A stretch of 37,979 nucleotides of DNA from a virus. Taxonomy: Duplodnaviria; Heunggongvirae; Uroviricota; Caudoviricetes. Positions 7,199 through 8,021 of the stretch are shown here, in pieces. The DNA is taken from IMG/VR virus record IMGVR_UViG_2850784384_000004; one strand, 5' to 3'. Both the position numbers and the translations under genes were made by a program. Each line of letters opens with the position of its first letter. Within the stretch, counting starts at the first letter, position 1. The notes beneath the pieces were generated by a model, which was not told the origin of the DNA, did not search any database, and was given only the letters and a program-made list of their open reading frames with translations.

Positions 7199-7227
7199 TT
7201 GAAAACCAGAACGGGTGGAATTATAGT
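7199..7227 (+). promoter_or_regulatory. sigma70-like promoter (TTGAAA-17 bp-TATAGT) upstream of rha leader
   Basis: Good -35/-10 match with 17-bp spacer; followed ~65 bp later by weak hairpin plus T7 run. Confidence 0.35.
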
Positions 7228-7288
7228 GCATCTGCACCTCATAAAACGGGGGCCGGGCGTGGAAACCCGAACGTTACTCGAGCGCATA

Positions 7289-7310
7289 GCCGCGCTGAAG
7301 CGGTTTTTTT
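7289..7310 (+). terminator. weak intrinsic terminator-like element (short stem plus T7)
   Basis: CCGC-GCTGAA-GCGG followed by TTTTTTT. Confidence 0.3.
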
Positions 7311-7479
7311 ATGCGTAATGCACAGCTCCATTCAAATTATGGTGGGATGTGCAGGGCAGTCGCAAGACTGGCCGGGTTCTCGAGTGACCGGTATTTCCAC
7401 CCCTGTACGTCTCACCACCCTTATGGTCGTGGAAAACCTCGGTGGTGAGTTAATTAACTTATCACTCGAGGATGCCATC

Positions 7480-8021
7480 ATGGCTACTATCCCTGCCCTT
7501 TCTCACCCTGACGTAACCATCGAAAACGGTCGCGCTGTCACTACGTCTGTTGCGGTTGCAGAGTTCTTCCACAAACGACACGACAATGTGTTACGTGCCA
7601 TCGCAAATACTGAATGCTCACCTGAATTTAACGCCCTCAATTTTGAGGACGTCACCTACACCGACACCAAAGGCGAAAAACGTCCAATGTACCAAATCAC
7701 CAAAAACGGCTTCGTTTTCCTGGTGATGGGCTTCACTGGGAAAAAAGCCGCTGCATTCAAAGAGGCCTACATCGCTGATGTTCGACCGCATGGAGGCAGA
7801 ACTGCACCAGAATAATACCCCGTCCGCTGACAAGATGATTCCGGGTAACGGTCGCACTCTGGTTGTGCACTTCGACGAACACGGCAATATCAGATTCACC
7901 GAAACTGTTCCTGACGGTGCACTGGTCTGTACCCTGGATACTTTCCAGTTTTATCTGGAAAAACAGGGGTGGGCTCTTGTAAACCGGAGCGCAATTAAAA
8001 ATATGACCGTAGAGCAGCTGC
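7480..8021 (+). pseudogene. Rha-family phage regulatory protein (anti-repressor-like), frameshifted and 3-prime truncated by IS2
   Basis: Phage_pRha-like motifs (KRHDNVLRAI, GFVFLVMGFTGKKA, FDRMEAEL); +1 frame break near 7785; IS2 starts at 8022. Confidence 0.75.

What the first reader, a model, noticed from the sequence alone, without database searches (positions are those of the whole stretch)
7199..7480. Candidate small RNA and structured leader upstream of the rha anti-repressor gene
A good sigma70 promoter (TTGAAA-17-TATAGT) is followed ~65 nt later by a short hairpin plus T7 run, which could delimit a ~75-nt transcript co-directional with rha. The downstream leader carries three CTCGAG palindromes (~7277, ~7381, ~7466), and a 10-nt stretch of the candidate RNA (GUUACUCGAG) can pair with the leader at ~7381. 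In phage P1/P7 and P22, expression of the anti-repressor gene ant is controlled by a small RNA (c4, sar); this looks like a comparable arrangement, but it is speculative.
Basis: inference. Interest (0 to 1): 0.5.

Follow-up and report, generated by a model that had tools for sequence, protein, structure and literature searches.

The report
Known phage c4/IsrK antisense immunity module
The promoter, small RNA and "structured leader" upstream of rha are a textbook phage P1-type antisense-RNA switch (an IsrK-family RNA followed by a C4 antisense RNA). It sits in a decayed Shigella prophage and both RNAs are already in Rfam, so the find is real but ordinary.

Summary
The promoter (7199-7227), the hairpin plus T7 terminator (7288-7310) and three CTCGAG motifs (7277, 7379, 7465) are all present.

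They belong to a known module. Rfam places an isrK-family sRNA at 7234-7310 (59.6 bits, threshold 50) and a C4 antisense RNA at 7335-7422 (76.7 bits, threshold 45).

The locus aligns colinearly with phage P1 immI: promoter, a1/b1, terminator, c4, a2/b2, start codon. C4 carries two single-stranded segments. a' (UUUCCAC) pairs with GUGGAAA both upstream (a1) and downstream (a2). b' (CUCGAGUGA) pairs with b1 and with b2, and b2 overlaps the rha Shine-Dalgarno sequence.

Across 63 related loci, a' and b' are hypervariable (31 and 45 variants). Their targets change in step with them: perfect matches of 7 nt or more occur in 59-100% of own-locus comparisons, against about 2% of cross-locus comparisons.

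The c4 equivalent lies inside the "leader". The 77-nt RNA carries target-like sequences and corresponds to Gifsy-1 IsrK, which activates rather than represses.

The rha gene here is a pseudogene. A second, heteroimmune copy lies at 26069-26270 (minus strand). Novelty: already known.

The parts
7199..7227 (+). Sigma-70 promoter TTGAAA-17-TATAGT. It is the positional homologue of the P1 promoter P1c4 (formerly P51b).
   Evidence: 10 of 12 positions. It aligns with the annotated P1c4 promoter of P1. A promoter matching at least 9 of 12 positions sits at the same place in 57 of 63 related loci.
7234..7310 (+). IsrK-family sRNA of 77 nt: hairpin 1, hairpin 2 with a1 in its loop, a linker carrying b1, then an intrinsic terminator.
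   Evidence: Rfam RF01394 at 59.6 bits against a gathering score of 50. Eight of the 10 pairs in hairpins 1 and 2 show compensatory changes across 47 homologues.
7259..7265 (+). a1 (GUGGAAA). Same sequence as a2 and complementary to a' of C4.
   Evidence: A perfect a1:a' match of at least 7 nt occurs in 95% of 63 loci, against 2% of cross-locus pairings.
7273..7282 (+). b1 (GUUACUCGAG), complementary to b' of C4. This is the first CTCGAG.
   Evidence: -18.1 kcal/mol.
7288..7310 (+). Intrinsic terminator: a GC-rich hairpin followed by T7.
   Evidence: A terminator-like element lies between b1 and C4 in 60 of 63 loci.
7335..7422 (+). C4 antisense RNA gene. By homology with the annotated P1 c4, the mature RNA is about 7341-7419 (79 nt).
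   Evidence: Rfam RF01695 at 76.7 bits against a gathering score of 45. MFE -43.5 kcal/mol, z = -5.0. In 62 distinct homologues 99.2% of cells are paired and 20 of 27 pairs show double changes.
7376..7387 (+). b' in the loop of C4 hairpin 2 (GUUCUCGAGUGA). This is the second CTCGAG.
   Evidence: It occupies the same position as P1 b'.
7394..7400 (+). a' in the single-stranded junction of C4 (UUUCCAC).
   Evidence: It occupies the same position as P1 a'.
7429..7435 (+). a2 target (GUGGAAA) in the rha leader.
   Evidence: A perfect a':a2 match of at least 7 nt occurs in 100% of 63 loci.
7442..7450 (+). Conserved GGUGGUGAG. It forms the 5' arm of the hairpin that buries b2 and the Shine-Dalgarno sequence. 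It is also complementary to the 3' arm of the C4 outer helix (7411-7419).
7462..7473 (+). b2 target (UCACUCGAGGAU). It overlaps the Shine-Dalgarno GAGGA at 7468-7472, and the start codon is at 7480. This is the third CTCGAG.
   Evidence: -18.5 kcal/mol.
7480..8022 (+). rha (Phage_pRha domain), the regulated gene. Here it is a pseudogene, with a +1 frameshift near 7778 and its 3' end replaced by an IS2-like end.
   Evidence: Pfam PF09669, E = 1.8e-28. tblastn against the intact 186-aa E. coli homologue gives two frames, 75% and 79% identity. The IS transposase ORF is at 8113-8478.

Best explanation
This is a P1 immI-type antisense control module for an antirepressor-class gene, lying in a degraded lambdoid prophage of Shigella flexneri.

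**Proposed sequence of events**
1. A constitutive-looking promoter at 7199-7227 starts transcription near 7234.
2. Many transcripts stop at the terminator (7288-7310). This yields a 77-nt IsrK-family RNA that displays a1 in a hairpin loop and b1 in a linker.
3. Read-through transcripts contain the C4 RNA (about 7341-7419). C4 folds into a long tRNA-acceptor-like helix enclosing two hairpins.
4. By analogy with P1, C4 is cut out of the precursor, with RNase P making the 5' end.
5. C4 exposes b' in a hairpin loop and a' in a junction. These pair with a2 (7429-7435) and b2 (7462-7473) on the rha leader.
6. b2 overlaps the Shine-Dalgarno sequence, so rha translation is blocked.
7. The short RNA carries the same a/b sequences as the mRNA target. 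It can therefore bind C4, or the C4 part of the long transcript, and relieve repression. This matches what was shown for IsrK in Gifsy-1.

**Shown here**
- Family membership of both RNAs.
- The C4 fold.
- The complementarities, and their co-variation across loci.

**Inferred**
- That the RNAs are expressed in this strain.
- Processing of C4.
- The direction of regulation.
- The decoy role of the short RNA.

Because rha is a pseudogene here, the module is probably a relic in this genome.
For: - **Rfam:** isrK scores 59.6 bits (threshold 50) and C4 scores 76.7 bits (threshold 45).
- **Homology to P1 immI:** the alignment is colinear. Spacings, P1 versus window, are: -10 to a1 32/32; a1 to b1 8/9; b1 to c4 67/59; c4 to a2 4/10; a2 to b2 23/27; b2 to ATG 11/10.
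- **C4 fold:** 99.2% of cells are paired, against 36-48% when the partners are slid. Twenty of 27 pairs have double-sided changes. For the window sequence z = -5.0.
- **Specificity co-variation (63 loci, 31 distinct a', 45 distinct b'):** own-locus perfect Watson-Crick runs of at least 7 nt are found for a2 in 100%, a1 in 95%, b2 in 71% and b1 in 59%. Cross-locus pairings reach this in about 2%.
- **Conserved flanks:** the promoter and terminator recur in 57 and 60 of 63 loci.
- **Within-window control:** the second copy has different a'/b' with matching targets.
- **Experimental link:** in Gifsy-1, C4 is at 34131-34214 and isrK at 34240-34316. The experimentally compensated pairs G28:C162 and G31:C159 of PMC4825925 map exactly onto a1:a'.
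Against: - No expression data exist for this strain.
- rha is frameshifted and cut by an insertion sequence (IS), so regulation may be vestigial.
- The window's isrK hairpin 1 has an A-G mismatch that relatives lack, and its match to c4-a1b1 is only 18.3 bits (threshold 46.7).
- b2 and the Shine-Dalgarno sequence are already buried in a local hairpin (z = -4.1). How much C4 adds to repression is therefore unknown.
- P1 works through a small upstream ORF (icd) and Rho-dependent polarity. No icd-like ORF lies between b2 and rha here.
- In Gifsy-1, mutating a1 in cis raised expression (PMC4825925, Table 1D). A pure decoy model does not predict that result.
Confidence: 0.9

Rival explanations
1. 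One reading: the 77-nt promoter-proximal RNA is the c4/sar-like repressor. It pairs with the leader near 7381 and so shuts off rha.
For: The 10-nt pairing between 7273-7282 and 7379-7388 is real. In this variant only, the palindromic CUCGAG core would also let b1 pair over 6 bp with b2 at the Shine-Dalgarno sequence.
Against: - b1 and a1 have the same sense as b2 and a2, so across the family they cannot pair with the ribosome-binding site.
- b' is not palindromic in the other loci.
- The site near 7381 is the loop of a C4 RNA that scores above the Rfam threshold.
- In Gifsy-1 the homologous RNA activates antirepressor translation 114- to 171-fold (PMC4825925).
Confidence: 0.05
2. The "leader" is mainly coding. 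Translation starts at the conserved AUG at the 5' end of C4 (7339, the Gifsy-1 orf45 start). It either couples to rha or makes an N-terminally extended Rha. The structure serves only to gate that ORF.
For: - AUG 7339 is in frame with ATG 7480 with no intervening stop (47 codons). The same holds in 30 of 63 loci.
- Gifsy-1 orf45 A107 is this same AUG. A SPA-tagged orf45 product was detected, and mutations of the orf45 start codon or a premature stop lowered anrP activation (PMC4825925).
- RefSeq annotates the open frame as part of Rha.
Against: - In 22 more divergent loci the frame stops after 3-37 codons, 14-130 nt before the gene start.
- C4 length varies by amounts that are not multiples of three.
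- Substitutions are compensatory at the RNA level.
- P1 c4 is an established RNA gene.
- This model can coexist with the main explanation as an extra layer.
Confidence: 0.15
3. P4 CI-type control: the processed RNA acts mainly on transcription. By pairing with the upstream (a1/b1) and downstream targets it causes premature termination, rather than blocking translation.
For: The layout is the same, with targets on both sides of a processed RNA. PMC4825925 proposes this analogy for STnc1160 and IsrK. An intrinsic terminator immediately follows b1.
Against: - b2 overlaps the Shine-Dalgarno sequence in nearly all loci. That placement points to translational control, as established for P1.
- No family other than C4, isrK and c4-a1b1 matched this stretch at E <= 1.
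- In Gifsy-1, constitutive STnc1160 did not reduce the IsrK effect.
Confidence: 0.1

Closest known systems
Phage P1/P7 immI region (c4 antisense RNA with a1/b1 and a2/b2 sites controlling icd-ant)
   Same: - The order of elements and almost all spacings are the same: promoter, a1, b1, hairpin plus T-run, c4, a2, b2, start codon.
- The C4 fold is the same, with b' in the hairpin-2 loop and a' in the following junction.
- b2 lies at the ribosome-binding site.
- Specificity is set by a short a/b code, which is the basis of P1/P7 heteroimmunity.
   Different: - The gene directly behind b2 is a Rha-domain protein. In P1 it is the small icd ORF followed by Ant1/Ant2, which carry the ANT/KilAC domain.
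- The host element is a lambdoid prophage remnant, in the dicF-dicB region, not a P1-like plasmid prophage.
- The a' and b' sequences differ: UUUCCAC and CUCGAGUGA here, CUGUCAA and UCACUAAC in P1.
Gifsy-1 isrK-orf45(STnc1160)-anrP locus of Salmonella (Hershko-Shalev et al. 2016, PMC4825925)
   Same: - Both have an isrK-family sRNA with its own promoter and a leaky terminator, followed by a C4-family RNA and an antirepressor-class gene.
- The validated IsrK:orf45 base pairs are a1:a' pairs.
- The window's second copy even shares the upstream Q-like antiterminator gene.
   Different: - In copy 1 the upstream context is dicF rather than antQ.
- The C4-spanning frame is fused in frame to rha. In Gifsy-1 it ends in an AUGA overlap.
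- The target gene here is a pseudogene.
Phage P4 CI RNA with seqA/seqC
   Same: A processed small RNA lies between two copies of its own target on the same transcript. PMC4825925 cites it as a structural analogue.
   Different: P4 CI causes premature transcription termination (as cited in PMC4825925). The window stretch matched only the C4, isrK and c4-a1b1 families at E <= 1. The downstream target here covers a Shine-Dalgarno sequence.
Phage P22 sar RNA
   Same: It regulates an antirepressor (ant) gene through an antisense RNA.
   Different: sar is transcribed from the opposite strand across the ant start (my own knowledge). Here every element lies on the plus strand, and no minus-strand promoter-terminator pair is present.

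Membership tests
C4 antisense RNA (Rfam RF01695; P1/P7 c4) | Covariance-model score at or above the curated gathering score | tested here: met
   76.7 bits against 45, with the full-length model matched (positions 1-87) at 7335-7422. P1 c4 itself scores 68.8 bits.
C4 antisense RNA (Rfam RF01695; P1/P7 c4) | A long closing helix enclosing two hairpins, supported by compensatory changes | tested here: met
   99.2% of cells are paired, 20 of 27 pairs have double-sided changes, and slid controls give 36-48%. MFE z = -5.0. Caveat: the alignment was fitted to the model.
C4 antisense RNA (Rfam RF01695; P1/P7 c4) | Single-stranded a' and b' complementary to a2 and b2 just downstream, with b2 at the ribosome-binding site | tested here: met
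   a' 7394-7400 pairs with a2 7429-7435. b' 7376-7387 pairs with b2 7462-7473, which overlaps GAGGA. Family-wide, the own-locus versus cross-locus contrast is 71-100% against 2%.
C4 antisense RNA (Rfam RF01695; P1/P7 c4) | A duplicate target pair a1/b1 upstream of c4 on the same transcript | tested here: met
   a1 is at 7259-7265 and b1 at 7273-7282. The Rfam c4-a1b1 model itself scores only 18.3 bits against 46.7 for this copy, but 52.2 bits for copy 2.
C4 antisense RNA (Rfam RF01695; P1/P7 c4) | Processing from a precursor by RNase P, and repression of the downstream gene in vivo | not testable with these tools
   Only the conserved acceptor-like stem and the 3' ...CACC end shared with P1 c4 are visible.
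P1 immI operon architecture | A small upstream ORF (icd) whose translation is the direct target and is needed for ant transcription | tested here: not met
   b2 lies 10 nt before the rha ATG itself. No separate ORF lies between b2 and rha. This feature defines the P1 operon, not the RNA family.
isrK Hfq-binding RNA (Rfam RF01394) | Covariance-model score at or above the gathering score | tested here: met
   59.6 bits against 50 at 7234-7310. Copy 2 scores 75.6 bits and Gifsy-1 IsrK 79.3 bits.
isrK Hfq-binding RNA (Rfam RF01394) | Its own promoter and a Rho-independent terminator that delimit a roughly 77-nt RNA | tested here: met
   Promoter matching 10 of 12 positions and hairpin plus T7. Both are conserved, in 57 and 60 of 63 loci. 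This is in silico only.
isrK Hfq-binding RNA (Rfam RF01394) | Hfq binding and trans-activation of antirepressor translation | not testable with these tools
   Known only for Gifsy-1 (PMC4825925).
P22 sar-type cis-antisense RNA | An RNA transcribed from the strand opposite the antirepressor leader | tested here: not met
   There is no minus-strand terminator and only a 9-of-12 promoter-like match. Abundant G-U pairs fix C4 on the plus strand.

The most novel reading that the evidence does not exclude
Two readings go beyond the papers I read and are not excluded by my evidence.

**1. The Gifsy-1 IsrK system and the P1 c4 system are one mechanism.**
- "orf45"/STnc1160 is the C4 RNA.
- IsrK is the a1/b1 target mimic that titrates C4.
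- a2/b2 sit on the antirepressor ribosome-binding site.
- The IsrK paper and a 2025 review treat IsrK and c4 as unrelated.

**2. The family has a conserved third layer.**
- A GGUGGUGAG-like element lies 12-21 nt after C4.
- It co-varies with the 3' arm of the C4 closing helix.
- It is also the 5' arm of the hairpin that buries b2 and the Shine-Dalgarno sequence.
- This would give an alternative-helix switch in the unprocessed transcript.
Probability: 0.25. Interest if true: 0.4.

Novelty: already known. Interest (0 to 1): 0.15.

Why it matters
For this window it matters little. Both RNAs would be called by any Rfam-based annotation, and the gene they control is dead.

The analysis is useful in three ways.
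- It shows how widespread and modular the switch is. It lies in front of Rha-type genes in Enterobacteriaceae, Vibrio, Pasteurellaceae, insect symbionts and Stx phages. Dozens of a'/b' "address codes" behave as heteroimmunity determinants.
- It flags a recurrent annotation error: Rha coding sequences extended over two RNA genes.
- It connects two literatures (P1 c4 and Salmonella IsrK) that describe the same device in different terms.

Tried and rejected
- **Nested cofolding:** cofolding C4 with its target or with the isrK RNA gave ddG = 0. RNAcofold cannot represent loop-loop (kissing) contacts, so I used local duplex energies instead.
- **isrK fold energy:** the single-sequence energy is no better than shuffles (z = -0.08). 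Support for its structure comes only from co-variation and the Rfam model.
- **Terminator co-variation:** the isrK terminator hairpin could not be scored for co-variation, because MAFFT did not align it across clades. I counted it locus by locus instead.
- **CTCGAG as a restriction-site or palindrome signal:** rejected. The window-wide count is below expectation, and homologues carry unrelated sequences at the same three positions.
- **Minus-strand hits:** cmsearch hits on the minus strand (about 26 bits) reflect the near-palindromic helices. G-U pairs exclude that strand.
- **Literature:** searches found no paper that explicitly equates IsrK with a1/b1. One APSE-phage paper notes that both RNAs co-occur.

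Full report
**Observation**

The promoter TTGAAA-17-TATAGT lies at 7199-7227 and matches 10 of 12 consensus positions. A GC-rich hairpin at 7288-7305 runs into a T7 tract ending at 7310. CTCGAG occurs at 7277, 7379 and 7465, and only once more in the whole 38-kb window. GUUACUCGAG (7273-7282) pairs with 7379-7388 at -18.1 kcal/mol.

Taken one at a time these matches are not above chance. The 2-kb region has 3 promoter-like sites against 2.0 +/- 1.6 expected, and 5 terminator-like sites against 2.2 +/- 1.4. Their significance comes from conservation, described below.

**Identity**

An Rfam scan places an isrK-family sRNA at 7234-7310 (59.6 bits, gathering score 50). It places a C4 antisense RNA at 7335-7422 (76.7 bits, gathering score 45). 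A second copy of the same pair lies on the minus strand at 26069-26270: C4 77.6 bits, isrK 75.6 bits, c4-a1b1 52.2 bits.

The window is 100% identical, over the 100-residue Rha query, to a Shigella flexneri chromosome. The best E. coli DNA match is about 93% identical. There the locus lies in a lambdoid prophage between dicF-like and dicB genes.

The gene behind the module encodes a Phage_pRha domain protein. In this window it has a +1 frameshift near 7778, and its last codons are replaced by an IS2-like end. It is therefore a pseudogene.

**Anatomy**

The annotated P1 immI region aligns colinearly with both window copies. The order is promoter P1c4, a1, b1, c4, a2, b2, icd. The spacings are nearly identical, P1 versus window:
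- -10 to a1: 32/32
- a1 to b1: 8/9
- b1 to c4: 67/59
- c4 to a2: 4/10
- a2 to b2: 23/27
- b2 to ATG: 11/10

The window elements are as follows.
- a1 is GUGGAAA at 7259-7265, in the loop of isrK hairpin 2.
- b1 is GUUACUCGAG at 7273-7282.
- b' is GUUCUCGAGUGA at 7376-7387, in the loop of C4 hairpin 2.
- a' is UUUCCAC at 7394-7400, in the C4 junction.
- a2 is GUGGAAA at 7429-7435.
- b2 is UCACUCGAGGAU at 7462-7473. It overlaps the Shine-Dalgarno GAGGA, and the ATG is at 7480.

Duplex energies are -18.5 (b':b2), -18.1 (b':b1), -9.1 (a':a2) and -10.6 kcal/mol (a':a1). The three CTCGAG motifs are simply b1, b' and b2. The core is palindromic only in this variant.

**Comparative test**

I collected 160 loci encoding Rha relatives. 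I then searched them with a covariance model built from the two window copies. C4 lies 38-57 nt upstream of the Rha start in Enterobacteriaceae, Symbiopectobacterium, Arsenophonus, Sodalis and Vibrio, and in most IMG/VR hits. In four Pasteurellaceae loci it lies elsewhere in the fetched DNA.

The C4 fold is strongly supported. 99.2% of cells are paired, against 36-48% for slid controls. Twenty of 27 pairs show changes on both sides. One caveat applies: the alignment was fitted to the model.

The decisive result concerns the specificity segments. Among 63 distinct loci there are 31 different a' and 45 different b' sequences. Each locus nevertheless carries perfect complements at fixed positions. 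Runs of at least 7 nt occur as follows:
- a2: 100%
- a1: 95%
- b2: 71%
- b1: 59%
- a' or b' of one locus paired against the targets of another: about 2%

The method recovers the annotated P1 sites. A promoter matching at least 9 of 12 positions is present in 57 of 63 loci. A terminator-like element between b1 and C4 is present in 60 of 63. In the isrK part, 8 of the 10 pairs in hairpins 1 and 2 show compensatory changes.

**Mechanism**

For P1 it is established that C4 is processed from the leader transcript and pairs with a2/b2. This blocks translation at the ribosome-binding site and so prevents antirepressor synthesis. The sources are the annotation, PMC12197685 and my own knowledge of Citron and Schuster 1990 and later work.

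For Gifsy-1, PMC4825925 reports four things:
- IsrK terminates at its own terminator.
- Read-through gives a translationally silent isrK-orf45-anrP mRNA.
- IsrK supplied in trans activates translation more than 100-fold.
- A stable processed RNA, STnc1160, lies downstream of IsrK.

I located isrK at 34240-34316 and C4 at 34131-34214 in the Gifsy-1 record. Three mappings follow:
- The paper's "first AUG of orf45" (A107) is the conserved AUGG at the C4 5' end.
- The compensated pairs G28:C162 and G31:C159 are exactly a1:a' base pairs.
- a2 and b2 lie immediately before the anrP start, with b2 on its Shine-Dalgarno sequence.

The two literatures therefore describe the same device. For this window the most likely working model is that C4 (7341-7419) is the repressor of rha translation. 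The 77-nt RNA would be a target mimic that binds C4, or the C4 part of the long transcript, and relieves repression. The fold and the complementarities are shown here. Expression, processing and the direction of regulation are inferred by homology.

The c4 analogy was correct, and it reflects homology rather than resemblance. The assignment of roles was reversed. The small RNA is not the c4 equivalent, and the "structured leader" is itself the antisense RNA gene. The sar comparison does not hold, because nothing indicates an opposite-strand RNA.

**Rivals**

- *Coding interpretation of the C4 region.* The frame from AUG 7339 runs into rha without a stop in 30 of 63 loci. It stops early in 22 more divergent loci, and C4 length varies out of frame. 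I treat translation through C4 as a possible lineage-specific extra layer, not as the conserved function.
- *P4 CI-like termination control.* This cannot be excluded as an additional effect. It is disfavoured as the main one, because b2 sits on the Shine-Dalgarno sequence.

**Extra observation**

Almost every locus has a GGUGGUGAG-like element 12-21 nt after C4. It is complementary to the 3' arm of the C4 closing helix and co-varies with it. 89.7% of cells are paired, against 24-56% for slid controls, and 5 of 8 pairs show double changes. The same element forms the 5' arm of a hairpin that buries b2 and the Shine-Dalgarno sequence (window z = -4.1). b2 is at least 70% paired in 59% of loci.

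This suggests an alternative-helix switch in the unprocessed transcript. The independent substitution events are few, however, and I did not find the feature discussed in the papers I read.

**Verdict**

The feature is real and correctly located. Its mechanism is essentially understood from P1 and Gifsy-1, and both RNAs belong to curated Rfam families. Novelty: already known. Interest is low. Modest value lies in unifying the IsrK and c4 descriptions, in the possible third structural layer, and in the annotation error that extends Rha coding sequences over the RNA genes.

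Noticed in passing
window 26069-26270 (-), with 26290-26964 (-) and 24746-25902 (-): A second complete isrK plus C4 module, with different specificity (a' ACGCCAA, b' UCCGUAC) and matching a1/b1/a2/b2. It lies directly downstream of a Q-like antiterminator gene (DUF1133/Phage_antitermQ), as in Gifsy-1 antQ-isrK. Its downstream gene is cut after 17 codons by an IS3-family element. The genome therefore carries two heteroimmune copies.
   Followed up: yes
window 7442-7450 with 7411-7419, and hairpin 7437-7471: A conserved GGUGGUGAG after C4 is complementary to the 3' arm of the C4 closing helix and co-varies with it across loci. 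It also forms the hairpin that buries b2 and the Shine-Dalgarno sequence. This could be an alternative-helix switch. I did not see it described in the papers I read.
   Followed up: partly
window 7183-7815 (+); L001 3557-4411: An ORF stays open through the isrK and C4 genes into rha. RefSeq annotates the E. coli A19 homologue as a 285-aa Rha protein that starts upstream of both RNA genes, whereas the Pfam domain and the Shine-Dalgarno sequence point to the ATG after b2 (186 aa). This looks like a systematically over-extended start. The conserved AUG at the C4 5' end (7339, the Gifsy-1 orf45 start) is in frame with rha in 30 of 63 loci.
   Followed up: partly
window 7480-8071 and 8023-9341: rha is a pseudogene. 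A +1 frameshift near 7778 splits it into two frames, 75% and 79% identical to the intact E. coli protein. From about 8023 the sequence appears to be the end of an IS2-like element (transposase ORFs 8113-8478 and 8436-9341). The IS boundary is judged by eye and from memory.
   Followed up: partly
window 6939-6987 (+) and 6999-7152 (+): A DicF-like RNA (38.8 bits, below the gathering score of 48) with its own terminator at 6955-6982, followed by an STnc100-like stretch (36.5 bits, below 47). Both lie just upstream of the module, which fits a dicBF-type prophage operon.
   Followed up: no
window 7236 and 7251: Hairpin 1 of the window's isrK copy has an A-G mismatch where close relatives have A-U (GGGGGC here, GGGTGC in relatives). 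This probably explains its lower Rfam score and fits decay of the locus.
   Followed up: no
window 2631-2813 (-), 15148-15264 (+), 29217-29391 (-): Other Rfam matches above the gathering score: CssrB (Shigella chromosomal sRNA B), the ALIL frameshift pseudoknot of an IS3-family element, and a sok/CssrC antitoxin RNA (hok/sok-type locus).
   Followed up: no
L164 (Gifsy-1) 34076-34330 (-): In Gifsy-1, a2 (UUGGCGU) and b2 (AUCACCGGAGG) lie directly before the anrP start codon, with b2 on its Shine-Dalgarno sequence. The published model attributes control to orf45 translation and does not mention these sites or c4.
   Followed up: partly
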